Below are positions 16,335 through 34,826 of a stretch of DNA of 53,745 bases, piece by piece. The position numbers and the translations under genes were made by a program. Origin of the DNA: Chlamydiota bacterium (lineage in GTDB: Bacteria; Chlamydiota; Chlamydiia; Chlamydiales; JABHNK01); the NCBI GenBank assembly GCA_051744985.1, contig JBNJDP010000004.1:1-53745 (forward strand), in the 5' to 3' direction. The notes beneath the pieces are model-generated. The model did not search any database. It was not told where the DNA came from and was given only the letters and a program-made list of their open reading frames with translations. The stretch's first letter is position 1. Every line of letters starts with the position of its first letter.

Positions 16335-18740
16335 ATGAAACTTCCTCTCTCCTGGTTAAAAGAATATGTTGAAATCGAGCATTCTCCCGAAGAGGTTGCG
16401 CACCTACTTACTATGGCAGGTTTAGAAGTCGATGCCGTAGAATATTACCGGCCTCCTTTTACGGGAGTAGTGGTAGGAGAAGTTTTGGAAACAACTCCTC
16501 ATCCCGATGCTGATAAACTTTGCCAAGCTAAAGTTTTTGATGGTCAAGAAACTCATGATCTTATCTGTGGAGCGCCTAACTGCCGCCCCGGCTTACGAAC
16601 GGCTTTTGCTAAGGTAGGCGGTGTCTTAAAAGATGCTAAAGGTAAAGATTTTAAGATCAAAAAGTCCAAAATTCGCGGTATAGAATCTTATGGCATGCTA
16701 TGCTCGGGAAGCGAGCTTCAGCTTACCGATGAGCATAATGGTATTTTGGAGCTTGGCACTGAATATCCTTTGGGTGCTGACCTTTCTTTGCAATTTAGCG
16801 AAGTCGTTTTTGAAATTTCCTTAACGCCAAACCTTGGCCATTGTAATAGTGTGCTGGGGATAGCACGGGAATTTGCTGCTTTAACAGGTAGCCCTCTCAA
16901 AATTCATCCTAGTCATGTTGTTGAAGATGAGCAGGAGTCTATCCATAAGCTTGCTCAAGTGTTGGTTGAAGACCGTCAGCACTGTTTGCGTTATGGATGT
17001 CGGGTGTTAAAAGATGTTTGTATTGGGCCTTCACCCCTTTGGTTGCAGACGAAGTTAATGCACTGTGGGGTTCGTAGCGTTAACAATGTTGTCGATATTA
17101 CCAACTTAGTGATGATGGAGCTTGGGCAGCCTATACATGCTTTTGACTATGATTTAATATCTGGACATCAAGTGACAATAAGAGCTGCTAAGCCAGGAGA
17201 GAAACTGATAACCCTAGACGGGGTAGAAAGGAGTTTGAATGAAGAGTCTTTACTGATTTGCGACCATGAGAAACCCCTTGCTTTAGCAGGTATTATGGGT
17301 GGTGAAAACTCAGAGGTCACCGACAGTACGGCTAATGTTTTAATTGAAGCTGCTTATTTTGAGCCTACTAATATCAGGCGTACTAGCAAAGCTTTAGGGG
17401 TGTCGACGGAGTCTTCTAAACGTTTTGAGCGTGGTGTCGATCCTAACAATGTTATCGAAGCTCTCGATAAGGTTGCCGAGCTTATCAACACTTTAGCAGG
17501 AGGTAAGGTAGCTCAGGGGGTTATCGATATTAAAGAAGTTGAATTTCACGAAAAAGTTGTTACCTGTAGGCTGTCACGTATCAATAAGATTTTAGGTATG
17601 CAGCTGGCCGTCGGAGAAATTCAGGATATCTTCAAGCGCCTGCAATTTTTTAACCAGTGGGATGGTGATGATACTTTTAGTATTAGAGTTCCTTCTTTTC
17701 GTCATGACATTCAACAAGAAATCGATCTTATCGAGGAGGTTGTCAGAGTCTATGGTTATGAGAATATCCCTAAAGATGAGGTAGCTTTTTCGATATCGAA
17801 AATACCCCATGCCCCTATATATCTGTTGGAAAAAGAAGTGCGCCAGCGGTTGATAGCTGAAGGGTTGCAGGATTTCATCAATTGTGATTTGATCAGCCCT
17901 TCCCAAGCTGAATTATGGGCAGACAATTCTGCTTCTTTGGTAAAAATTATTAACCCCACCTCTACTGAGCAGTCAGTATTGCGCCCTTCTTTGCTTCCTG
18001 GGCTTTTGGAAGTCATCAAACACAACTTCCACCATGATACTTATGATGTCAGCGGCTTTGAAGTAGGACGTATTCATTATAAGGCGGGGGATGATTATTA
18101 TGAAAATTCTATGGCTGCAATAGTTTTGACCGGCAATAGCTCTTATCCTCATTGGAGTGAAGAAGGTTCTGAAGTGGATTTTTTTAGCATCAAAGGTATT
18201 GTTGAAAACCTTTTTGCTGGCTTGGAATTAGAAAACTTAACCTTTAAAAGGTCACAACTTCCGGTTTTTCATCCAGGCCGTCAGGCTTCCATCTTCAAAG
18301 ATGAAATTGATATCGGCGTCATCGGTGAGCTTCATCCAGCCCTTTTAAGTCAGCAAGGTGTAGGCCAGCGGATTTTTTTCGCTGAGATCAACCTCGACAA
18401 TATTCTAAAGATGCAGCCTCACACTAAAACCATGGAGCCTTTACCTCAATACCCAGGCTCAGAACGTGATTGGACTATTACCATTAAAGAGGACCTGCCT
18501 ATCCAGGATATTATAGACATTATGGAAGAAGCTCCTTCTAAATTATTAAAGGAAGTGTCTTTTGTAGGACAATATTATGATGAGCAAAAAGTCGGCTCGG
18601 GATGGAAAAACGTTACCTTCAATATGCTTTATCGCAGTGATAAAAAAACTGTCTCTTTAGCAGCTGTTGAAAAAGACCATGCTAAGGTTGTTAGTTATAC
18701 CCTAGAAAAGCTTGAAAAAAAGGATTTAATACGTGTCTAA
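16335..18740 (+). CDS. pheT: Phenylalanine--tRNA ligase beta subunit
   Basis: 801 aa with the canonical N-terminus MKLPLSWLKEYV and a tRNA-binding domain (..HPDADKLCQAKV..), B3/4, B5 and C-terminal FDX-ACB-like regions. No pheS is adjacent. Confidence 0.95.
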   Translation: MKLPLSWLKEYVEIEHSPEEVAHLLTMAGLEVDAVEYYRPPFTGVVVGEVLETTPHPDADKLCQAKVFDGQETHDLICGAPNCRPGLRTAFAKVGGVLKDAKGKDFKIKKSKIRGIESYGMLCSGSELQLTDEHNGILELGTEYPLGADLSLQFSEVVFEISLTPNLGHCNSVLGIAREFAALTGSPLKIHPSHVVEDEQESIHKLAQVLVEDRQHCLRYGCRVLKDVCIGPSPLWLQTKLMHCGVRSVNNVVDITNLVMMELGQPIHAFDYDLISGHQVTIRAAKPGEKLITLDGVERSLNEESLLICDHEKPLALAGIMGGENSEVTDSTANVLIEAAYFEPTNIRRTSKALGVSTESSKRFERGVDPNNVIEALDKVAELINTLAGGKVAQGVIDIKEVEFHEKVVTCRLSRINKILGMQLAVGEIQDIFKRLQFFNQWDGDDTFSIRVPSFRHDIQQEIDLIEEVVRVYGYENIPKDEVAFSISKIPHAPIYLLEKEVRQRLIAEGLQDFINCDLISPSQAELWADNSASLVKIINPTSTEQSVLRPSLLPGLLEVIKHNFHHDTYDVSGFEVGRIHYKAGDDYYENSMAAIVLTGNSSYPHWSEEGSEVDFFSIKGIVENLFAGLELENLTFKRSQLPVFHPGRQASIFKDEIDIGVIGELHPALLSQQGVGQRIFFAEINLDNILKMQPHTKTMEPLPQYPGSERDWTITIKEDLPIQDIIDIMEEAPSKLLKEVSFVGQYYDEQKVGSGWKNVTFNMLYRSDKKTVSLAAVEKDHAKVVSYTLEKLEKKDLIRV

Positions 18741-18771
18741 TAGAATAAAATTAACAACAACAGGTTTTGTG

Positions 18772-19716
18772 ATGAAAAAAATATTAACATCAGCTTTTTT
18801 AACTGTTTTAATGCTTACTAGTGTGCAATGCACAAAAACCTCTCATGGAGTGGTTAAAGAGCAATATGTTCATCAATATGGTGTTACTTTAAATAAGAGT
18901 GACTGGATGAACCGCGGAGGCAATGGACAGATAATTTCCACATTGAAAAATGGAGTGCTGGTTACTAAGAACTACCGCGGTGGAGTTCTAGAAGGTAAGA
19001 CCACTTATACTTTCCCTCACAGCCTTACAGTCGCTAAAGTCAAAGAATACCGCGACGGTAACCTCGTTATGGTTACCGATAATTACACTGCTGGAACACC
19101 GTTGCGGTGTCAGGAATTTTTGGATGAAAATGCTGTAAAACTTACCAGCTGGTATCCTTCCGGAACGCCTAAAAGCATAGAAACTTTTAACGGAGGTCTT
19201 TTAGTTTCCGGTGAATATTTCGACCGTGAAAATAAAAAAGATTCTGCTGTTAAAGACATGAACGGCAATCGCATTGTGCGCGATGAATATGGTGAGATGA
19301 TTTCCGAAGATGTTATCGAAGAAGGGGAGCTTGTGGTAAGCAAAACTTTTTACCACTCAGGAACGCCTAAAAGTATTACGGAATTTAATGATGGCATGAT
19401 TGATGGTAAGCGCCAGACTTTTCTCCCTAATGGAGAGCCTCTAGCTGTTGAAAATTGGATCGAAGGCCGCCAAGACGGTGTTACCGTAGTCTTTAAAGAC
19501 GGTGCTAAATTCGCCGAAGTACCTTATGTTAATGGGGTTAAACATGGTGTTGAAAAGCGCTTTAAGCAAGAAGATTTTGTTGCAGAGAAGATTACATGGG
19601 AAAATGGAAGTCGTACTGGACCTACCTATTACTATGTTGACGGTAATAAAGAGGTCGAATGGTACTTAGAAGGCAAAAAAGTTTCTAAGCTGACTTATGA
19701 AGAAAGGCACCGTTAA
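18772..19716 (+). CDS. Secreted, possibly lipid-anchored, MORN-variant repeat protein (YwqK-like repeats)
   Basis: Signal peptide MKKILTSAFLTVLMLTSVQC, then repeated units of the type W/FYxSGTPKSIxxFNxGxxxGxxxxF. The start is taken at ATG 18772 rather than the GTG at 18733. Confidence 0.6.
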   Translation: MKKILTSAFLTVLMLTSVQCTKTSHGVVKEQYVHQYGVTLNKSDWMNRGGNGQIISTLKNGVLVTKNYRGGVLEGKTTYTFPHSLTVAKVKEYRDGNLVMVTDNYTAGTPLRCQEFLDENAVKLTSWYPSGTPKSIETFNGGLLVSGEYFDRENKKDSAVKDMNGNRIVRDEYGEMISEDVIEEGELVVSKTFYHSGTPKSITEFNDGMIDGKRQTFLPNGEPLAVENWIEGRQDGVTVVFKDGAKFAEVPYVNGVKHGVEKRFKQEDFVAEKITWENGSRTGPTYYYVDGNKEVEWYLEGKKVSKLTYEERHR

Positions 19717-20212
19717 GCCTATAGAAAATACTATGAGGGTCGCTAAAGCCCCAGGAGTATCGGTAGATTTTTTTGTTGAGGGCGATCTTATCACTAAGGT
19801 TGCCCTTAATCTTTCTAGCAATTTTGAATCCAGGGTTATCGGAAACCAGCATCTCAATGAATCTATTTTGGGATGGTTGGAAAGCTATCTCTCGATAGGG
19901 AATACCTCTTTAGACTTGCCTTTAGCACCTTTTAAGCTTCCTTCTTTTAGCAGGCAGGTTATGGCGGTTTTGCCTTCCATCCCTCGAGGACAGGTCTTGA
20001 CCTATCGGCAGCTTGCTGAAAAACTCGGCAATCCTAATGCTGCTCGTGCTGTTGGTAGGGCTTGTGGCTCCAATATCTATCCCTTAATTTTTCCTTGTCA
20101 CCGTGTTGTTGCTTCTAACGGTAAGATCGGCGGCTTCTCAGCAGGAGGTATTGAAGTTAAAAAACGCCTCCTGAACTTCGAAGCAGTAGGAAAAAATTAT
20201 TCTTCCTCTTGA
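19697..20212 (+). CDS. ogt: Methylated-DNA--protein-cysteine methyltransferase
   Basis: Active-site motif IFPCHRVV and helix-turn-wing LTYRQLAEKLGNPNAARAVGRACGSN. The start could alternatively be the internal ATG at 19733. Confidence 0.88.
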   Translation: MKKGTVKPIENTMRVAKAPGVSVDFFVEGDLITKVALNLSSNFESRVIGNQHLNESILGWLESYLSIGNTSLDLPLAPFKLPSFSRQVMAVLPSIPRGQVLTYRQLAEKLGNPNAARAVGRACGSNIYPLIFPCHRVVASNGKIGGFSAGGIEVKKRLLNFEAVGKNYSSS

Positions 20213-20376
20213 TGTTGCTCTTGCAATATTTCGTGAGCGGCAAGCTTGACGCTCTCTAATCCCTTTTCAAAACCTATAGTCTTTAAAAGGTTGTCGACAT
20301 AACTCAACTCGCTAGCCAACTGGTCGTTGGCAAATTCTAAATGGGCTATTTGTTTTCTAAGTTCTTGTTCTTTCAT
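20197..20376 (-). CDS. Unannotated small ORF (59 aa), predicted helical/coiled-coil with an acidic C-terminus
   Basis: Hand translation gives MKEQELRKQIAHLEFANDQLASELSYVDNLLKTIGFEKGLESVKLAAHEILQEQHQEEE*. GGAGG lies 7 nt upstream of the ATG at 20376. It is the only sizeable ORF in the 227-bp gap between ogt and rsmB, and it is preceded by a sigma-54-type promoter. It falls just below the ORF-track size cutoff. Confidence 0.6.
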   Translation of the reverse strand: MKEQELRKQIAHLEFANDQLASELSYVDNLLKTIGFEKGLESVKLAAHEILQEQHQEEE

Positions 20377-20408
20377 GACAGCACCTCCACATTCTTTACT
20401 TTTTTGAA

Positions 20409-20424
20409 TGCAAGAAGTGTGCCA
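20409..20424 (-). promoter_or_regulatory. Sigma-54 (-24/-12) promoter
   Basis: The minus strand reads TGGCAC-ACTTC-TTGCA, matching all 11 fixed positions of TGGCAC-N5-TTGCA with correct GG-N10-GC spacing. It lies 15 nt after the rsmB stop and 32 nt before the ATG of the 59-codon ORF. Confidence 0.65.
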
Positions 20425-20439
20425 AAGTTGGCGCGAAGG

Positions 20440-21651
20440 TTATTTTTTTCTTAGCAGCCCTAAATAGCCACCATCATACCCTTCGGAGTTGGGGGTGATA
20501 GTCTTTTGGAAGCAATTTTCTAAAGGGCAATGGTGGGAGGCCCAATGATATAGAGCCTGATTTTCTGTGGGGAGGATACTACACGTTAGATAGGCGAGAT
20601 AGCCGCCGGTTTTAAGGAGGTTAGAGGAGTGAGCTATCAATTGTTGTTGAGTTTTGTTGAGGTTATGGATGTTGTCAGGGGATAGTCGCCAGCGAGCTTC
20701 TGCTCTTCTAGCCAGTGTTCCGCTATTGCTACAAGGGACGTCGACGATAACAAGGTCGAATTTTTCTTCGGTTTGCAAATTCTGTCCTTGGGAGCATGTT
20801 AAGTGAACATCAAGTCCATATTTGTCGAAGTTTTCTTTCAATAGAGATAATTTTTGTTGAGAGACATCATTAGCATATAGAGTGGCGTTTGGGAAAAGGT
20901 CATGAGCCGCTAGAGTTTTTCCTCCTGGAGCAGCACACAGATCTAAAATAGTGCTAGGGGTACAGATCTTATCTTGTAGTGTAGCCATCAAAGTGGCAGG
21001 AGTGAGGTTTTGGATGTAATAGCCCTGAGACTGTGAGAGAAAAGGGATTAGTTTGGAGTCCTTGATAACCGCTAATTTTTCAGAACAGTATTTTAAGCCC
21101 TCGATATGAGGAAGGTCTTTTTGGCGGATCCTAACAGTGGTAGAAGGTGTAGCATTACCTGCAGCCAAGATATCCTTGACAACTTCTAGGCTATAGCTAG
21201 CGAGAAGTTCATCGATAAAATAAGAAGGGTAAGAGTAGGCAACATCCCAAGATGTGGGCGGTTCGATAGTAACTCTGGAAATATTGGCTAAGATGGCATG
21301 TAGGAAGGCTTTAAAGCGTGGGCGGCAGTGTTTAGTAGCGATTTTAAGGCTCTCATCGATAATAGCGTAGAGCGGTATCCTATCCATGAAATAATGCTGG
21401 TAAAGAGCTGTTCGTAGCAAAGCTCTTTCTTGGAGCTTGACCTTCAACTTTGAACTACCCGCCAATTGACGAGCGTAGTAGTCGAGGGTGAGAGCTCTTT
21501 TAAGGGTTCCGGAAGCAATCTCTCTTGCGAGATTATAATCAGGAGCAGAGGGAGACGAATGTCTTTGCCACTGCTCCAAAGTATCAGTAGCATAAAGGCT
21601 ACCTCGCAAGGATGCTAGCACCGCTTTGTAAGCGGCTTCGCGAGCGGTCAT
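20440..21651 (-). CDS. rsmB: 16S rRNA (cytosine-C5)-methyltransferase RsmB/Sun
   Basis: NusB-like N-terminal domain, SAM-binding LDLCAAPGGKT, and catalytic motifs DVPCSNSGT and YLTCSILPTEN. It overlaps the serS stop by 4 nt. Confidence 0.88.
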   Translation of the reverse strand: MTAREAAYKAVLASLRGSLYATDTLEQWQRHSSPSAPDYNLAREIASGTLKRALTLDYYARQLAGSSKLKVKLQERALLRTALYQHYFMDRIPLYAIIDESLKIATKHCRPRFKAFLHAILANISRVTIEPPTSWDVAYSYPSYFIDELLASYSLEVVKDILAAGNATPSTTVRIRQKDLPHIEGLKYCSEKLAVIKDSKLIPFLSQSQGYYIQNLTPATLMATLQDKICTPSTILDLCAAPGGKTLAAHDLFPNATLYANDVSQQKLSLLKENFDKYGLDVHLTCSQGQNLQTEEKFDLVIVDVPCSNSGTLARRAEARWRLSPDNIHNLNKTQQQLIAHSSNLLKTGGYLAYLTCSILPTENQALYHWASHHCPLENCFQKTITPNSEGYDGGYLGLLRKK

Positions 21652-26300: not shown

Positions 26301-27356
26301 TTATTTATCACGCCTTTGTCTTGCTAGTCGAGAAATTTTATTCCAGCAGCCACTAATTCCCATAGCGCTGCGCATCTCTTTGATGGTTTCTTCTGCTAGC
26401 TTATTTGTTTTTAGGGTTCCTTCATAGATGATCTGCTCTACTAGGCCTTTTTCGCTGGCGAACATTTTCCTTTTCTCTCTAATAGGTTCTAGATAGTTGT
26501 TAAGAGCGGCAGCTAATTTGTCTTTGACCTCAACATCCCCGACAGTTCCTTGGCGATAGCGTTCTTTGAGGTCGTTGATTTCCTCAGTATTGGAATTGAA
26601 AAGATCGTGATAAATAAATACTGGATTGCCTTCAACATTTCCTGGAACGTTGGCATGGACCCTGTTAGGGTCGGTATACATCCCTTTAACCTTTTTTGTG
26701 ACAGTTTTTGCATCATCAGAAAGATAGATGGCATTGCCCGCTGATTTGCTCATCTTGCCTTTGCCGTTAGTGCCTATAAGGGTGGGATGGGCGCTGAGCA
26801 TGACCTCGGGGGCAGGAAAAACTTCCCCGTAATATTGGTTGAACTTACGTGCAATATCACGAGCTAGTTCAACATGAGCTTCGTTGTCCTTGCCAACAGG
26901 TATTATATGCGATCGCAGCATCAAAATGTCAGCACTCATCAACACAGGGTATCCTAATAGTCCTAAAGGCATATTATTTTCGTCTAAGTGAGCATTATGG
27001 GCCATCTCTTTCAAGCTTGGCAGGCCCGTAAGCCTATTAGTATTGACAAGCATTTCGAAGAATAGATTCATCTCGTAAACTGCTGGAATGGCTGATTGCA
27101 GATAAATAGTAGACTTCTCGGGGTCGATGCCGCAAGCTAGGTAGTCTAAGACCATATCTTTGATGTTTTCGCGCATTGCTAAGATATTTTCTTTTTGCGG
27201 CTTAGTAGTCAACATATGCAAGTCGGCGATAAAAAAGTAACAGTCATAATTATCTTGAAGAGCTACTCGATTTTTTATCGATCCGATATAATGGCCGAGA
27301 TGTAGCTTTCCTGTAGGGCGGTCGCCGGTGAGTATTTTTTTCTGAGGGGCGTTCAT
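26301..27356 (-). CDS. trpS: Tryptophan--tRNA ligase
   Basis: 351 aa with a HIGH-type motif ([11 protein letters not shown]) and KMSKS. Its ATG overlaps the upstream permease stop (ATGA). Confidence 0.95.
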
Positions 27357-28576
27357 TGTGTTATCTCCATGATTGATAAGATTCCTGTTTTAACGACCAT
27401 CTCTATTGCTATAATTGCAATGCTGATGATGAAAACCATAATTAATGCAGCCTTGCCACCAGGAGCTTGATAAGCTCCCTCAACCTTCATCTTATAGCGC
27501 CCTGACCATACCATCGCAGCCGGCAGCAAGCACAACAAGGTTATTACGCCAAAAGCTCCAGCGTACTCTAAGGCTGTTAAAAAAGCTCTAGGGTAGGTCA
27601 AAGCTACTGTTAGCGGTGGTAAAAAGGCAATGCATGCTAATAAGAGCTTGCCTGAAGGGGTCTTTTTTACTTTTAGGCCATCGGCTAAAAAATCAGTTAA
27701 GCTTAGCGAAACCCCCAAGAAAGAGGTTACGATAGCAAAGAATGCTAGAAAGTTGGAAACAACAGAGATCCAAGGTTCTTGAAGGATTTCCTGCATAGGT
27801 TTTATAGCACTTGTACCTTTTATCCATGCTTCGGTGAGACCCGGAGACCCGTTCATGGGAAGTACTCCTAGAACGATGAACTCCCAGAGGATATACACCA
27901 AAAAAGGAATGATACTTCCAATAAATAAGGAGGTTTTCATCTTGGGAAGGTCGCGCTTGAAATAAGATGTCAAGGTTGGAATGATGATATGATAACCAAA
28001 GGAAGTGACAATTACTGAGAAGGCCAACGGCATATAGGCAAAATTGGTTTCCTCAAGAAGTTGCTTATCAACATGAGGGGTGATGAAAATAATTATAATA
28101 AAATAGGTCACCGCCAGCCCTACCATCAAGGCTCTGTTAAGATGGTCAACAGCGCTAGTACCTTGGTACACAAAGTACCCGAAAATCATTAGAAAAGGTA
28201 TAGGGCCTAGCCAACTAGGGATTGGCATGCCAGTAGCAGCTTTCAAAAAGGTTACTAGTAAATCTGAGCCCAATGAGATATAGGCGGTGTTAAGAAGATA
28301 AAGTAAAAAAAGATAAGCGCTCCACGCTAAAGCTTTGCCGACACCTCCTAAGGTGTACTCAGCCATCGTAATCAAGTTTTCTTCTTTTTCTTGGTATAGG
28401 TTGACTTCAAGCATTAAAAAAGCTGTGTAAAGCATTAAACCCCAGATGATCAGGAAAGCAAGAAGTGCGGGATAAAACCCGGCAATACCGGTAGAGATAG
28501 GCAGAGCCAACATTCCAGCGCCTATGGTTGTCCCTGCTACAAGCAAGATCCCTCCTAAGAGTTTGCTATGTTTCAT
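27353..28576 (-). CDS. tyrP: Aromatic amino-acid (Tyr/Trp) permease, HAAAP family, copy 2
   Basis: 407 aa with 11 predicted TM helices and the N-terminal signature [20 protein letters not shown]. It is a paralogue of the adjacent gene. Confidence 0.85.
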
Positions 28577-31685: not shown

Positions 31686-32531
31686 ATGTTTAATAATAAC
31701 GTAAGAGATTGGAACTCTCGGGGGATAATTCCCGGGCCCGGAGAAAGTCGGCAAGACTATTTCAAACGAGGAGAGGGCCTCTTAAAAAAAAGTTCTGATA
31801 GTCCGAGCCCTATTCCTGAGGAGCACCTGCGTACCCCTTTGAATACCTGTTGGAGGTTATTTGGAGTCACTCCCGACTGGGTAGTTTGTTATTATAGTAA
31901 TCGACAGCTAGCATCTTGGCATGGAGGCGCAACTTTGTATGAAGAGGAGGGGGGGCAAACGATAGATATTGAAATACAGTTGCGCCAAGCTTTTAAGTAT
32001 AAGGATTCTTACCTTGGGATATATTCTCGGGATGAAATTTTAGCTCACGAGCTTGTTCATGCTGGCAGGATGGCTTTTCCTGATTCCTGTTTTGACGAAT
32101 TTCTAGCTTACCGTACCTCTTCCAGCTCTTTACGTAAATTTTTAGGGCCTCTATTTACTAACTCCATAGGAGCAGTAATTTTTTTGTCATTGATAGTATT
32201 AGCGCTACTATTCCAAATGATGGGGTTGATAATAGATGCTCATTGGTTTGAAGAAATTGTCTGGGGGGTGCAGCTTTTGCCTTTGGGGGTAGTAGCTTAT
32301 GCTTTGGGAAAATTACTCTATCGTCATCATCATCTGCATAGATGTAAGAGTAATTTAGAGTGTGCAGGAGTTAGTTATCCTTGGCATGTGATCTATCGTT
32401 TGTCTGATAAAGAGATTTATTTGTTATCTCAGGGTGATTATAGCAAGATAAAATCTCTGGTAGAAAATTATGCTCATAGCTCCTTGCGTTGGCAGATGAT
32501 AGTAGAAACTTATTTCCTTGAGGTTCAATAA
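31686..32531 (+). CDS. Membrane protein with an HExxH zinc-metallopeptidase-like motif
   Basis: 281 aa with ILAHELVHAGRMAF followed by FDEFLAY, then two TM helices (IGAVIFLSLIVLALLFQMMGLII and LLPLGVVAYALGKLLY) and a His/Cys-rich tail (HRHHHLHRC). Confidence 0.5.
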   Translation: MFNNNVRDWNSRGIIPGPGESRQDYFKRGEGLLKKSSDSPSPIPEEHLRTPLNTCWRLFGVTPDWVVCYYSNRQLASWHGGATLYEEEGGQTIDIEIQLRQAFKYKDSYLGIYSRDEILAHELVHAGRMAFPDSCFDEFLAYRTSSSSLRKFLGPLFTNSIGAVIFLSLIVLALLFQMMGLIIDAHWFEEIVWGVQLLPLGVVAYALGKLLYRHHHLHRCKSNLECAGVSYPWHVIYRLSDKEIYLLSQGDYSKIKSLVENYAHSSLRWQMIVETYFLEVQ

Positions 32532-33997
32532 ATTTTTCTTTGGCTGGTGCTGGGGATGTTTAAGGCATAGCGGTATTTGGTGACCGTACGACGGGCGCAG
32601 CTGATACCTTCTTCTTGTAGTTTTTGGGAAATTGCTTGGTCGGAGAGGGGCTTGCTCTTGTCTTCGGTATCGACAATGGTTTGAACCATATCTTTAACGC
32701 TCGAGGCAGCAATAGATAGCCCTTTTGCATTGGTATATTCACAGCTAAAAAAAGATCTCAAAGGTAATAACCCTCTAAAGCAATGAAGGTGTTTGCCAGA
32801 TATGGCTCTGGCGACAGTAGACTCATGAATTTCAAGCTCTTCAGCTATGGCTTTCATCGTTAAGGGGTTGAGCATACCTCTCCAGCTGGAAAAGAATGGC
32901 TGTTGTTTTGTTACTAAAACTTCGGCAATCCTATGGAGTGTATACTGGCGTTGATCAACATTCTTCATTAGCCACCGACCGGCATTGATCTTATCATTGA
33001 TATAGCTTTTGATTTTGTTTGGAACCTTTTTATCCTTGAGCATAGCTAAATACTGAGGTTGTAATCGCATTGTAGGTAGCTGCTCATCGTTGACGGTGAT
33101 GATAAATTCTCCATTATTTTGGTGTATTTCAATGTCAGCAACTAGAGGAGGTGTAGGTCGGGAAGAGTATGCTAGGCCGGGGTGTAAGTCTAAGTGAGCG
33201 ATAACCTTGTCGATAGCCTCGCGGACAGCTGGCGTCGACACTTTGAGTTTTTTTGCGATAGCAGGGAGCTTGTTGTGAAGCATCTCTTGGTAATGGTTTT
33301 TTATGATCTTATAAGCTAATGAACCCTGTTGGTGATGGCAGCATAGCTGGATGAGTAACGATTCCTGAAGGTTTGAAGCCCCTATTCCATAGGGGGTAAA
33401 AGTCTTAATAATAGGTAAGACAGCCTTGAGAGTTTCTTCTGGGATATCGTTTAGTAAAGCTATCTCTATCAGCGGACTATCCAAAAATCCGCGTTTATCG
33501 AGGTTGCCAATGATAATTTTTGAGGCCTCTATTTCTTGAGGAGTGTCGAAAACTTCGTGTGCTTGCTGTAATAAATGCTCTCGAAGAGTAGAGGATGAGG
33601 TAAGAGAGCTTTCCAGAAAAGCTCGTAGTTTCTCATCAGCATGGGGCTGCTGGTTAGTATAACCGCTACTTTCGTTCATATAGTCTAAAAAATTTTCCGA
33701 CAAACTTTGAATAGTTTGATAGTCGTCCTCGTCAAAGTCTACTTCTTTGTCGGGAGAGGGTTCTTTGGAACCAGAAGATTCTAGTGAGTTTTCATCGAAT
33801 TCTTTGTTATCAGCATGTTCGAGAATGGGGTTGTCTTCGATGGCATTTTCTAAAACTGCTGAGAGCTCCGTAATAGGTGCCTGTAAGATATTAAGAGCTT
33901 GCTGCATATGGGGGGAAATCATCAGACGTTGATACTGTTTAATAGCTTGCTGATTTTCTTGGTGGATTTCTAATGAAAAGTCTTTAGTCATGTCCAT
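32525..33997 (-). CDS. rpoN: RNA polymerase sigma-54 factor
   Basis: 490 aa with a Gln-rich region I (QENQQAIKQYQRLMISPHMQQALNILQ), an acidic region II, a C-terminal HTH, and the RpoN box ARRTVTKYR. Confidence 0.95.
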   Translation of the reverse strand: MDMTKDFSLEIHQENQQAIKQYQRLMISPHMQQALNILQAPITELSAVLENAIEDNPILEHADNKEFDENSLESSGSKEPSPDKEVDFDEDDYQTIQSLSENFLDYMNESSGYTNQQPHADEKLRAFLESSLTSSSTLREHLLQQAHEVFDTPQEIEASKIIIGNLDKRGFLDSPLIEIALLNDIPEETLKAVLPIIKTFTPYGIGASNLQESLLIQLCCHHQQGSLAYKIIKNHYQEMLHNKLPAIAKKLKVSTPAVREAIDKVIAHLDLHPGLAYSSRPTPPLVADIEIHQNNGEFIITVNDEQLPTMRLQPQYLAMLKDKKVPNKIKSYINDKINAGRWLMKNVDQRQYTLHRIAEVLVTKQQPFFSSWRGMLNPLTMKAIAEELEIHESTVARAISGKHLHCFRGLLPLRSFFSCEYTNAKGLSIAASSVKDMVQTIVDTEDKSKPLSDQAISQKLQEEGISCARRTVTKYRYALNIPSTSQRKIY

Positions 33998-34019: not shown

Positions 34020-34826
34020 TTAGGAGCGCAATTTTAGGCATTGCAAAAGTGTTTCTTGAGATTTTGAGGATAGGGTCGTCAAGGCAGGTTTAATGCCTCT
34101 CTCGGAGATTTCAAAGGCTTTCATATTATTGCATACTAACCCATCGAGCTTAACGCCTATCCCTTGAAGGTTAGTGATATTACCCCAATCGGAGAACATC
34201 TCCAAAGCAAGCTCGCAAGCGGTGATCATAAAAAAAATCTTTCTTCCGGGGTTTTGGTGGACGATTTTGAAGATTTGTTCCCCAATATAATGGGTGGTAG
34301 TGATCACCAGTGGGATGATACGTTCCTGGGGAAGGAAATTAAAAGCTTTGCCGATATAACATTGGCGACAAACTGGGTCGTCGGGGTTTGCATTACAATG
34401 AGTAGAAAAACGTTTAGCAGGGCATTCAAAGGGCTTATGACAATAAGAAAAACCTACGATAAGCAACGAATCATCATCACGGAGCTGATCCTTAAAGTCT
34501 GCCAAGCTTTTAAGGTTGTAGAGAAAGAGATCTCCTTCACGTCGACGAGCTTTTCTTCGTAAGAGAGATAGGATAAAACGCCAGCTATATTTGAAAGGGT
34601 GCTTAAGGAATTGGGCTCTTAATCGTCCCCCGTGATCATATTTTATGAGATGTTTTAGAGCTTTCCAGGGCAGGTTTTTTGCAGTTTTAGTAGTAATACT
34701 TATTGGCTGCTTAGGGCAGGCTGTTGTTTTAAGAGGGGAATGCTGAGAGGCTTTTTGCGCTCCTGCTTCCCACTCTTTTTCGGCTTCGTCCCAATGGTGG
34801 TATCGATAAAGAAATTTTCTATCCAT
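34020..34826 (-). CDS. Cysteine-rich hypothetical protein (possibly DUF116-like)
   Basis: 268 aa with the Cys cluster SYCHKPFECPAKRFSTHCNANPDDPVCRQCYIGK, followed by a region resembling a nucleotide-binding-like fold (IFFMITACELALE). It sits 2 nt downstream of the 249-aa ORF and 22 nt upstream of rpoN. Confidence 0.4.
   Translation of the reverse strand: MDRKFLYRYHHWDEAEKEWEAGAQKASQHSPLKTTACPKQPISITTKTAKNLPWKALKHLIKYDHGGRLRAQFLKHPFKYSWRFILSLLRRKARRREGDLFLYNLKSLADFKDQLRDDDSLLIVGFSYCHKPFECPAKRFSTHCNANPDDPVCRQCYIGKAFNFLPQERIIPLVITTTHYIGEQIFKIVHQNPGRKIFFMITACELALEMFSDWGNITNLQGIGVKLDGLVCNNMKAFEISERGIKPALTTLSSKSQETLLQCLKLRS

What the first reader, a model, noticed from the sequence alone, without database searches (positions are those of the whole stretch)
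20197..20424. Consensus sigma-54 promoter driving an unannotated 59-codon ORF that converges on and overlaps ogt
The minus strand at 20424->20409 reads TGGCAC-ACTTC-TTGCA. All 11 fixed positions of the TGGCAC-N5-TTGCA consensus match, with correct GG-N10-GC spacing. An exact 11-position match is expected far less than once in ~107 kb of two-strand sequence, since 4^11 is about 4.2 million. I checked a dozen other TGGCAC/GTGCCA occurrences in the window by eye, and none has a TTGC at the right distance. Downstream, 32 nt separate the motif from an ATG (20376) that is preceded by GGAGG at 7-nt spacing. That ATG opens a 59-aa helical, acidic-tailed ORF that the 60-aa ORF track misses. The window also encodes RpoN itself (32525-33997). 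Sigma-54 regulons in Chlamydiota are small and tied to late-stage development, and as I recall small hypothetical ORFs were among the first predicted chlamydial sigma-54 targets. The ORF's last 16 nt overlap the 3' end of ogt on the opposite strand and I see no terminator. A sigma-54-activated transcript would therefore also run antisense into ogt.
Basis: partly seen in the sequence, partly recalled or inferred. Interest (0 to 1): 0.72.

Follow-up and report, generated by a model that had tools for sequence, protein, structure and literature searches.

The report
Known chlamydial sigma-54 promoter–small gene unit
The motif is a genuine-looking sigma-54 promoter, but it drives this uncultured chlamydia's copy of Ctl0021/CT652.1, a small protein already published as one of the two validated sigma-54 targets in Chlamydia, so it is a new example of a known thing and not a new kind of thing.

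Summary
TGGCAC-ACTTC-TTGCA lies at 20424->20409 (-). It is 32 nt upstream of an ATG that has a GGAGG Shine-Dalgarno 7 nt before it. That ATG opens a 59-codon ORF (20376->20197), whose last 16 nt overlap the 3' end of ogt on the other strand. rpoN is in the window, on the minus strand.

The ORF is a full-length orthologue of Ctl0021/CT652.1 (53% identity to the Protochlamydia protein, 44% to the C. muridarum one). A 2025 ChIP-seq study found that sigma-54 binds only ctl0021 and ctl0052 in C. trachomatis. The same study predicted a sigma-54 promoter upstream of ctl0021 orthologues in Chlamydia-related bacteria.

I repeated that test on 60 orthologous loci. A GG-N10-GC element of TGGCA type sits a median of 33 nt before the ATG in 47 of 56 loci where I could place an ATG start. 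Most extra copies of the motif precede paralogues of the same gene.

The convergent overlap with ogt is peculiar to this contig. In 22 loci ogt lies upstream on the same strand. Antisense control of ogt is therefore unsupported as a conserved function. What the protein does remains unknown; it is predicted to be a helical hairpin. Interest is low to moderate.

The parts
20409..20424 (-). Sigma-54 -24/-12 promoter element TGGCAC-ACTTC-TTGCA (GG at 20423-20422, GC at 20411-20410)
   Evidence: exact match, chance mean 0.01; published PWM 13.5 against a cut-off of 10; ranked first in the window with an independently built PWM; the same element is conserved upstream of orthologues and paralogues.
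20397..20399 (-). Predicted transcription start, 12 nt downstream of the C of the -12 GC (inferred, not measured)
   Evidence: Inferred from the standard sigma-54 promoter geometry. It is consistent with ChIP peaks about 50 bp upstream of the ctl0021 coding region in C. trachomatis (PMC12282069).
20384..20388 (-). Shine-Dalgarno GGAGG, 7 nt before the ATG
   Evidence: Read directly. It is largely unpaired in the predicted sigma-54-initiated leader.
20197..20376 (-). 59-aa orthologue of Ctl0021/CT652.1 (Chlamydiota-specific small protein, predicted helical hairpin)
   Evidence: ORF; 53% and 44% identity to published orthologues, E 2e-19 and 7e-16; 176 representative clusters; 1,037 family members; 13 invariant columns. 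AlphaFold2 pLDDT 92, helices 2-34 and 40-58.
20197..20212 (.). 16-nt convergent overlap between the 3' ends of the small ORF (-) and ogt (+)
   Evidence: Coordinates. The arrangement was not seen in any related locus.
19697..20212 (+). ogt (methylated-DNA--protein-cysteine methyltransferase)
20440..21651 (-). rsmB/sun 16S rRNA m5C methyltransferase, upstream on the same strand. Its stop codon is 15 nt before the -24 element.
20374..20424 (-). 18-bp imperfect inverted repeat that pairs the promoter element with the SD/ATG region (local curiosity, not conserved)
   Evidence: dG -18 to -25 kcal/mol, z -2.6 to -4.6; such pairing is no more frequent in orthologues than in a permutation null.
32525..33997 (-). 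rpoN (sigma-54), intact, three domains
34020..34826 (-). 268-aa conserved hypothetical. In 29 related loci it lies downstream of the small gene on the same strand, in about 10 of them immediately. Here it sits directly upstream of rpoN.
   Evidence: No family hit.

Best explanation
The element at 20424->20409 (-) is the sigma-54 promoter of this organism's copy of ctl0021/ct652.1, the small gene that is the most widely conserved sigma-54 target in the phylum Chlamydiota.

Proposed mechanism:
1. RNA polymerase carrying the RpoN encoded at 32525-33997 (-) binds the GG-N10-GC element as a closed complex.
2. An NtrC-type AAA+ activator (a CtcC homologue, which in Chlamydia has no DNA-binding domain and so needs no upstream enhancer) remodels it to an open complex late in the developmental cycle.
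3. Transcription starts near 20398.
4. The resulting leader of about 22 nt carries a free GGAGG, and the 59-aa protein is translated.

The protein is predicted to be a two-helix hairpin with the invariant G-F-x-x-G at the turn and an acidic tail. By analogy with C. trachomatis it is a late-stage product made around RB-to-EB conversion, and possibly a type III secretion substrate.

What is shown here: the sequence features, the orthology, the conservation of the promoter, and the presence of rpoN. What is inferred from C. trachomatis data: sigma-54 occupancy, late timing, the start site, activator dependence and secretion.

The convergent overlap with ogt results from a lineage-specific rearrangement. 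It is most likely incidental.
For: - **Motif.** Exact and statistically unexpected. It is intergenic and in the sense orientation, 32 nt from the ATG. It is the top PWM hit in the window with two independent matrices.
- **Orthology.** The ORF matches published Ctl0021 proteins (Table S1 of PMC12282069; alignments). A family of 1,037 proteins, where named all from Chlamydiota, has 13 invariant positions, all present here.
- **Promoter conservation.** Of the 56 loci (out of 60 fetched) where I could place an ATG start, 47 carry a GG-N10-GC element of TGGCA type a median of 33 nt before the ATG. The strict core TGGCAY-N5-TYGCW is present in 37 of 56, where about 0.09 would be expected from the background rate. 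Of the 15 further strict-core hits in the 60 loci, 9 lie 26-52 nt upstream of extra paralogous copies of the same gene (a tenth adjoins a paralogue) and 2 lie upstream of orthologues whose start I had not placed.
- **The motif travels with the gene.** The upstream neighbour is usually ogt or something else. Here it is rsmB, and the motif is still present.
- **Sigma factor.** rpoN is intact in the window.
- **Literature.** Sigma-54 ChIP-seq in C. trachomatis L2 finds only ctl0021 and ctl0052, only at 28-36 hpi, with peaks about 50 bp upstream of the coding region and no sigma-66 binding. The paper cites start sites mapped by Mathews & Timms 2000 (PMC12282069). CtcC lacks a DNA-binding domain (PMC7482065). 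A CT652.1-BlaM fusion was scored as secreted (PMC12671076).
Against: - There is no transcript, start-site or ChIP data for this uncultured organism.
- No bEBP/CtcC gene (GAFTGA motif) lies in these 53.7 kb, so the presence of the activator is unverified.
- rsmB ends only 15 nt upstream on the same strand with no convincing terminator. Read-through transcription could therefore also express the ORF.
- One clade of orthologues (8 loci whose proteins start MHMKK/MHMEK/MHTKK) has a sigma-70-like promoter instead, so sigma-54 control of this family is not universal.
- Two RNA-seq studies of the C. trachomatis sigma-54 regulon did not recover ctl0021 (as discussed in PMC12282069).
- The protein's function is unknown. 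Foldseek and PDB sequence searches found nothing informative.
Confidence: 0.88

Rival explanations
1. The small ORF is expressed mainly as the last gene of the serS-rsmB transcription unit, by read-through from a housekeeping (sigma-66) promoter. The sigma-54-like motif would then be non-functional or only a minor contributor in this organism.
For: The ORF is on the same strand as rsmB. The gap from the rsmB stop to the ORF's ATG is 63 nt. No intrinsic terminator was detected on the minus strand in that gap. No sigma-70-like promoter was detected in the gap either.
Against: The motif is an exact consensus and is conserved at the same distance in 47 of 56 orthologous loci with quite different upstream genes. 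It accompanied the gene through the rearrangement. In C. trachomatis the ctl0021 promoter binds sigma-54 and not sigma-66. In a read-through RNA the promoter sequence pairs with the SD in an 18-bp hairpin, which would work against translation.
Confidence: 0.07
2. The biologically important output is antisense. The sigma-54 transcript runs into ogt and down-regulates it late in development. The peptide would be secondary.
For: The ORFs overlap convergently by 16 nt. Downstream of the ORF stop the hairpins have no U-tract, so a transcript could continue into ogt.
Against: The convergent geometry is unique to this contig. In 22 related loci ogt is upstream and co-directional, and in 2 it is downstream and co-directional. 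The peptide is strongly conserved as a protein. Rho-dependent termination after the stop codon cannot be excluded.
Confidence: 0.04
3. The motif is a chance match and the ORF is a spurious short reading frame.
For: The ORF is short (59 aa), has no Pfam or NCBIfam family, and the first word-indexed search returned only itself.
Against: Exhaustive HMMER finds 176 representative clusters and the profile search finds 1,037 proteins. AlphaFold2 gives pLDDT 92. The chance of the exact motif is about 0.01 per window. The motif is conserved across loci.
Confidence: 0.01

Closest known systems
ctl0021 / ct652.1 sigma-54 promoter-gene unit of Chlamydia trachomatis (Mathews & Timms 2000; sigma-54 ChIP-seq in PMC12282069)
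   Same: The protein is orthologous: 38-44% identity to Chlamydia spp. proteins, the same length, and the same invariant residues. The promoter has the same architecture (TGGCAY-N5-TYGCW with GG-N10-GC) and the same position 30-45 nt before the ATG. The genome encodes RpoN.
   Different: The spacer and -12 flank differ: ACTTC-TTGCA here against the Chlamydiaceae-type AATTT-TCGCT consensus. The genomic context differs, with rsmB upstream and ogt convergent. There are no experimental data for this organism.
Predicted sigma-54 promoters upstream of ctl0021 orthologues in Chlamydia-related bacteria (Protochlamydia, Parachlamydia, Simkania; Table S1 of PMC12282069)
   Same: These are the closest protein relatives: 53% identity to the P. 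amoebophila protein and 42-43% to those of Parachlamydia and Simkania. The promoter is of the same -12 TTGCA type. The window site scores 13.5 on that paper's own PWM, within the range of those entries (10.7-14.4).
   Different: This lineage is not in that table. Its SerS, RpoN and PheT are singletons at 90% identity. It has a single copy, whereas P. naegleriophila and several MAGs have tandem arrays. The gene is inverted relative to the pheT-MORN-ogt block seen in other environmental chlamydiae.
Canonical enhancer-dependent sigma-54 promoters of Proteobacteria (e.g. glnAp2, nifH; consensus of Barrios et al. 1999, as cited in PMC7482065)
   Same: The -24/-12 core and spacing are identical to the bacterial consensus TGGCAC-N5-TTGCW.
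   Different: No upstream activator-binding sites are expected or evident. The DNA upstream is rsmB coding sequence, and chlamydial CtcC lacks a DNA-binding domain.

Membership tests
Sigma-54 (RpoN) -24/-12 promoter | GG and GC dinucleotides separated by exactly 10 nt within TGGCAC-N5-TTGCW | tested here: met
   all 11 fixed positions match. Chance mean is 0.01 per window.
Sigma-54 (RpoN) -24/-12 promoter | Non-coding location, sense orientation, and a suitable distance upstream of a gene with a ribosome-binding site | tested here: met
   intergenic, 32 nt before the ATG, GGAGG 7 nt before the ATG. The orthologue median is 33 nt.
Sigma-54 (RpoN) -24/-12 promoter | The organism encodes an intact sigma-54 | tested here: met
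   (AID, CBD and DBD domains, all near full length). (RpoN box ARRTVTKYR).
Sigma-54 (RpoN) -24/-12 promoter | The organism encodes a bEBP AAA+ activator (GAFTGA motif; CtcC/NtrC type) | tested here: inconclusive
   no GAFTGA-like motif in any frame of the 53.7-kb window. The rest of the genome is not available.
Sigma-54 (RpoN) -24/-12 promoter | The element is conserved in orthologous promoters | tested here: met
   present in 47 of 56 loci. The strict core is in 37 of 56, against about 0.09 expected. It also precedes paralogous copies.
Sigma-54 (RpoN) -24/-12 promoter | Sigma-54 holoenzyme binding, activator- and ATP-dependent open-complex formation, and a start site about 12 nt after the GC | not testable with these tools
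   Shown only for the C. trachomatis orthologue in the literature.
Ctl0021 / CT652.1 small-protein family | Full-length sequence homology to published Ctl0021 orthologues | tested here: met
   (E 2e-19 and 7e-16; 36-53% identity over the whole length); the window protein scores 98 bits against the family profile.
Ctl0021 / CT652.1 small-protein family | Family-invariant residues (A11 L13 E14 D18 Q19 E23 L30 L31 G35 F36 G39 K44 E49) and a size of 55-75 aa | tested here: met
   13 columns invariant across 57 sequences, all present in the window protein, which is 59 aa.
Ctl0021 / CT652.1 small-protein family | Restricted to Chlamydiota | tested here: met
   the named hits are Chlamydia, Protochlamydia, Parachlamydia, Waddliaceae or Chlamydiales MAGs, except one MAG labelled Verrucomicrobia. 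The literature agrees.
Ctl0021 / CT652.1 small-protein family | Late developmental expression; type III secretion | not testable with these tools
   Reported for C. trachomatis only: RT-qPCR and ChIP, BlaM assay.
Cis-antisense (convergent-overlap) regulatory pair with ogt | The convergent overlapping arrangement is conserved among relatives | tested here: not met
   in 22 loci ogt is upstream on the same strand, and in 2 it is downstream on the same strand. No locus shows convergence.
Cis-antisense (convergent-overlap) regulatory pair with ogt | A transcript actually extends into the partner gene | not testable with these tools
   There is no canonical terminator, but there are no RNA data either.

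The most novel reading that the evidence does not exclude
In this lineage a local inversion turned the conserved sigma-54 unit to face ogt. Late sigma-54 firing would then produce an antisense RNA that silences ogt during RB-to-EB conversion. In addition, the unusually long 18-bp complementarity between the promoter and the Shine-Dalgarno region keeps rsmB read-through transcripts translationally silent, so the small protein is made only from sigma-54-initiated mRNA.
Probability: 0.07. Interest if true: 0.45.

Novelty: new member of a known kind. Interest (0 to 1): 0.27.

Why it matters
The finding gives a confident functional annotation to a 59-codon gene and its promoter in an uncultured chlamydial lineage that a 60-aa ORF cut-off would miss. 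It also adds independent comparative support, across 60 species-level genomes, for the published view that sigma-54 -> ctl0021 is an ancient, phylum-wide regulatory unit in Chlamydiota.

The comparative work produced three smaller leads for specialists.
1. Tandem paralogue arrays exist in which most copies carry their own sigma-54 core motif.
2. One clade appears to have swapped the sigma-54 promoter for a sigma-70-type promoter.
3. A 268-aa conserved hypothetical gene usually follows the small gene, probably in an operon. In this window it sits next to rpoN instead.

None of this changes the basic picture. The main open question remains what the Ctl0021 protein does.

Tried and rejected
1. 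**Curated families.** Pfam and NCBIfam have no family for the peptide.
2. **Word-indexed search.** A single-sequence homologue search returned only the peptide itself. Homology emerged only from the literature table, the exhaustive HMMER search and the profile search.
3. **Exact-sequence look-up.** The peptide is not on record elsewhere. A cluster look-up of SerS, RpoN and PheT gave singletons, so the organism could not be named.
4. **Second canonical target.** The TPR protein at 43701-44786 (-) shows only generic TPR similarity to Ctl0052/CT683 (E 1e-6 over 76 aa), and there is no GG-N10-GC upstream. I rejected it as that orthologue.
5. **Promoter::SD hairpin as a conserved translational gate.** The pairing is strong in the window. 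Among orthologues it is seen in 17 of 47, against 15.0 +/- 2.3 in a promoter/leader permutation null. I rejected it as a conserved feature.
6. **Terminator after the ORF.** No canonical terminator was found, only hairpins without U-tracts.
7. **Structure comparison.** Foldseek against the PDB gave 0 hits, and the PDB profile search gave only coiled-coil noise with E >= 0.08.
8. **Waddlia papers.** I checked two papers for direct RpoN data in a Chlamydia-related bacterium and found none.
9. **Mathews & Timms 2000.** The paper (PMC94762) is not held in the library, so its start-site mapping is cited second-hand through PMC12282069.
10. **Paralogues and activator.** No paralogue of the peptide and no bEBP gene lie in the window.

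Full report
**1. The observation**

Reading the minus strand shows TGGCAC-ACTTC-TTGCA at 20424->20409. GG is at 20423-20422 and GC at 20411-20410, which is the canonical GG-N10-GC spacing.
- The pattern TGGCACNNNNNTTGCA has this single match in the window, even with one mismatch allowed.
- An exact match arose in only 1 of 100 dinucleotide-preserving shuffles, mean 0.01.
- The ORF list confirms a 59-aa ORF at 20376->20197 (-). GGAGG lies at 20388-20384, 7 nt before the ATG, and 32 nt separate the motif from the ATG.
- The neighbours are rsmB/sun (20440..21651 -), whose stop codon is 15 nt upstream of the motif, and ogt (19697..20212 +), which overlaps the ORF's 3' end by 16 nt.
- RpoN is encoded at the stated coordinates but on the minus strand, with all three sigma-54 domains and an RpoN-box variant, ARRTVTKYR.

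**2. What the ORF is**

Curated libraries have no family for the peptide, and a word-indexed search returned only the peptide itself. The literature gave the key.

A 2025 study (PMC12282069) ran sigma-54 ChIP-seq in C. trachomatis L2 and found exactly two bound sites, upstream of ctl0021 (= ct652.1) and ctl0052 (= ct683).
- Binding was seen only at 28-36 hpi.
- Peaks were centred about 50 bp upstream of the coding regions.
- No sigma-66 binding was found at these promoters.

The study also states that Ctl0021 is conserved in all Chlamydia and in Chlamydia-related bacteria (one exception), with a putative sigma-54 promoter upstream in every case. Its Table S1 lists the orthologue sequences and a HOMER matrix.

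I aligned the window peptide with those sequences.
- Identity is 53% to the P. amoebophila protein (E 2e-19), 44% to the C. muridarum protein (E 7e-16), and 36-53% to all nine sequences compared, collinear over the whole length.
- An exhaustive HMMER scan finds 176 representative clusters, all 43-110 aa.
- A profile search finds 1,037 proteins. Every one that carries a source name is called 'hypothetical' or similar, and every named source organism is a chlamydia.
- Across a 57-sequence alignment, 13 columns are invariant, and the window protein has all of them.

The ORF is therefore a real gene and the orthologue of Ctl0021/CT652.1.

**3. Is the promoter more than a motif match?**

*Published matrix.* With the published HOMER matrix (cut-off 10) the window site scores 13.5. 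That is within the range of the Protochlamydia, Parachlamydia and Simkania entries. The next best position in the window scores 4.9.

*Independent loci.* I fetched 60 orthologous loci from a species-level genome collection and examined the DNA upstream of each orthologue. I could place an ATG start in 56 of them.
- In 47 of the 56, the best upstream hit is a TGGCA-type element with exact GG-N10-GC spacing. It lies a median of 33 nt before the ATG (interquartile range 30-40); the window value is 32.
- The strict core TGGCAY-N5-TYGCW occurs within 100 nt upstream in 37 of 56 loci. The background rate in the remaining 781 kb of strand sequence is 0.0015 per 100 nt, which predicts about 0.09.
- Those 'background' hits are largely true positives. 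Of 15 further strict-core hits in the 60 loci, 9 sit 26-52 nt upstream of additional paralogous copies of the same small gene, and a tenth directly adjoins one. Two more sit upstream of orthologues whose start I had not placed (L021, L045).

*Second matrix.* A matrix built only from the 47 orthologue promoters ranks the window site first of about 107,000 positions, at 19.5 bits. That equals the median score of the true sites (19.6). It is also the only one of the five best-scoring sites that lies outside a gene.

*The motif travels with the gene.* The upstream neighbour in most loci is ogt or an unrelated gene. In the window it is rsmB, and the element is still present at the same distance.

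**4. Mechanism**

By homology, the RpoN holoenzyme binds the element as a closed complex. An NtrC-type AAA+ activator then drives open-complex formation late in development.

Chlamydial CtcC lacks a DNA-binding domain (PMC7482065). The absence of any enhancer is therefore expected, even though the DNA upstream of the promoter is rsmB coding sequence.

The start site is predicted near 20398. That gives a leader of about 22 nt in which the SD is essentially unpaired.

No bEBP gene lies in the window, so the presence of the activator in this genome is unverified.

AlphaFold2, run with the family alignment, predicts with high confidence (pLDDT 92.3) a helix (2-34), a turn (35-39, the invariant G-F-x-x-G) and a second helix (40-58), followed by an acidic tail. 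Neither Foldseek against the PDB nor a PDB profile search gives an informative relative.

For the C. trachomatis protein the literature reports that:
- it is a 6.6-kDa predicted type III substrate;
- a BlaM fusion was scored as secreted, with the overall call 'possibly secreted';
- a GFP fusion is nuclear in transfected cells, which is weak evidence for so small a fusion partner (PMC12671076).

My best reading is a late, sigma-54-dependent small protein made around RB-to-EB conversion, possibly packaged as an early secretion substrate. The biochemical function is unknown.

**5. The ogt overlap and the antisense idea**

No canonical intrinsic terminator follows the ORF. Two hairpins downstream lack U-tracts. 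A transcript could therefore continue into ogt.

Synteny argues against a selected antisense function. Other environmental chlamydiae share the block pheT > MORN-like protein > ogt > [sigma-54 promoter] small gene, all on one strand.
- ogt lies upstream and co-directional in 22 loci. In seven of them it ends within about 120 nt of the small gene's start.
- ogt lies downstream and co-directional in 2 loci.
- No locus shows convergence.

The window's convergent overlap is a lineage-specific rearrangement, in which the small gene and its promoter are inverted relative to the block.

**6. Rival: read-through from rsmB**

The 63-nt gap between the rsmB stop and the ORF's ATG contains no terminator on the minus strand and no sigma-70-like promoter. 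Some read-through is therefore plausible.

In such an RNA the promoter sequence (UGGCACACUUCUUGCAUUC) pairs with the SD region (GAAUGUGGAGGUGCUGUCA) in an 18-bp hairpin, with z of -2.6 to -4.6. That would disfavour translation of read-through RNA.

I tested whether this pairing is a conserved device, and it is not. In 17 of 47 orthologues at least 5 SD-zone nucleotides pair with their own promoter. A null that swaps promoters and leaders between loci gives 15.0 +/- 2.3, and 53 of 200 permutations reach the observed value. The pairing is a generic consequence of pyrimidine-rich sigma-54 promoters meeting purine-rich SDs. The window's long version is a curiosity.

**7. Origin and novelty**

The window's SerS, RpoN and PheT are singleton clusters at 90% identity, from an NCBI contig of exactly the window's length. 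The best PheT identity to any fetched locus is about 50%.

This is therefore an uncultured, fairly deep chlamydial lineage that is not in the published table. The finding is a new member of a known, published kind. It is not a new mechanism.

**8. By-products**

- Tandem arrays of 2-3 paralogues, most copies with their own sigma-54 core motif, occur in several MAGs. This echoes the four copies in P. naegleriophila listed in Table S1.
- Eight loci whose proteins start MHMKK/MHMEK/MHTKK lack any GG-N10-GC upstream. In the two loci I scanned, the position about 55-60 nt upstream carries TTGATA-16-GATAAT or TTGAAA-16-GATAAT instead. This suggests a promoter swap to the housekeeping sigma factor.
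- A 268-aa conserved hypothetical (window 34020-34826 -) lies downstream of the small gene on the same strand in 29 loci, often with gaps of only about 20-90 nt. In the window it lies 14 kb away, directly upstream of rpoN. It has no family or PDB relative.
- The second-best sigma-54-like site in the window (28223-28238 +, TGGCATGCCAGTAGCA, 17.6 bits) lies inside a gene and antisense to it. It is probably chance.

**9. Verdict**

The feature is real and functionally interpretable, but it is the already described chlamydial sigma-54 -> ctl0021 unit. Interest is low to moderate (0.27). The antisense and hairpin readings remain unexcluded but unlikely.

Noticed in passing
window 34020-34826 (-), next to rpoN 32525-33997 (-); loci L011, L015, L019, L025, L030, L031, L039, L045, L047, L049 and 19 others: A 268-aa conserved hypothetical with no Pfam, NCBIfam or PDB relative. 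In 29 of 60 related loci its homologue (27-53% identity, 44-53% in 28 of them) lies downstream of the Ctl0021 orthologue on the same strand, often only about 20-90 nt away, which suggests an operon. In the window it is detached from the small gene and sits 23 nt upstream of rpoN, co-oriented. A functional link to sigma-54 is possible but untested.
   Followed up: partly
loci L003, L012, L013, L035, L036, L043, L051, L056 (upstream of the orthologue): In this clade the orthologues start MHMKK/MHMEK/MHTKK and lack any GG-N10-GC element. In the two loci scanned (L012, L035) an AT-rich sigma-70-like promoter (TTGATA/TTGAAA-16-GATAAT) lies about 55-60 nt before the ATG. This looks like a replacement of sigma-54 control. 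Whether these genomes have lost rpoN could not be checked.
   Followed up: partly
loci L029, L037, L038, L040, L046, L048, L050, L060: Additional paralogous copies of the small gene lie within a few kb of the matched copy. Each extra copy has its own TGGCAY-N5-TYGCW core, 26-52 nt upstream in all but L050, where it directly adjoins the ORF. This resembles the four-copy array of Protochlamydia naegleriophila in the published table. The window has a single copy.
   Followed up: partly
window 20374-20424 (-): An 18-bp imperfect inverted repeat pairs the sigma-54 promoter element with the Shine-Dalgarno/ATG region (dG -18 to -25 kcal/mol). It would sequester the SD only in rsmB read-through RNA. 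Among orthologues such pairing is no more frequent than in a permutation null.
   Followed up: yes
window 28223-28238 (+): The second-best sigma-54-like site in the window is TGGCATGCCAGTAGCA (17.6 bits on the orthologue-derived PWM, partly palindromic). It lies inside ORF 27353..28576 (-) and antisense to it. It is probably a chance intragenic hit of the kind the published scan also reports.
   Followed up: no
window 16335-20212 (+) versus 20197-20376 (-): The block pheT > MORN-like 327-aa protein > ogt is conserved and co-directional with the small gene in many environmental chlamydiae. In the window the small gene and its promoter are inverted relative to this block, and rsmB-serS, which are not found near the orthologue in any fetched locus, now lie upstream of it. 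At least two rearrangements are implied.
   Followed up: partly
window 20418-20435 (+): A weak terminator-like hairpin with a T-run lies on the plus strand, overlapping the sigma-54 promoter about 200 nt downstream of the ogt stop. If it is used, the ogt 3' UTR would be antisense to the entire small gene.
   Followed up: no
window 43701-44786 (-): A 361-aa TPR protein. It is not a convincing orthologue of the second canonical sigma-54 target Ctl0052/CT683 (generic TPR similarity only), and it has a TTGACA-containing upstream region with no -24/-12 element.
   Followed up: yes
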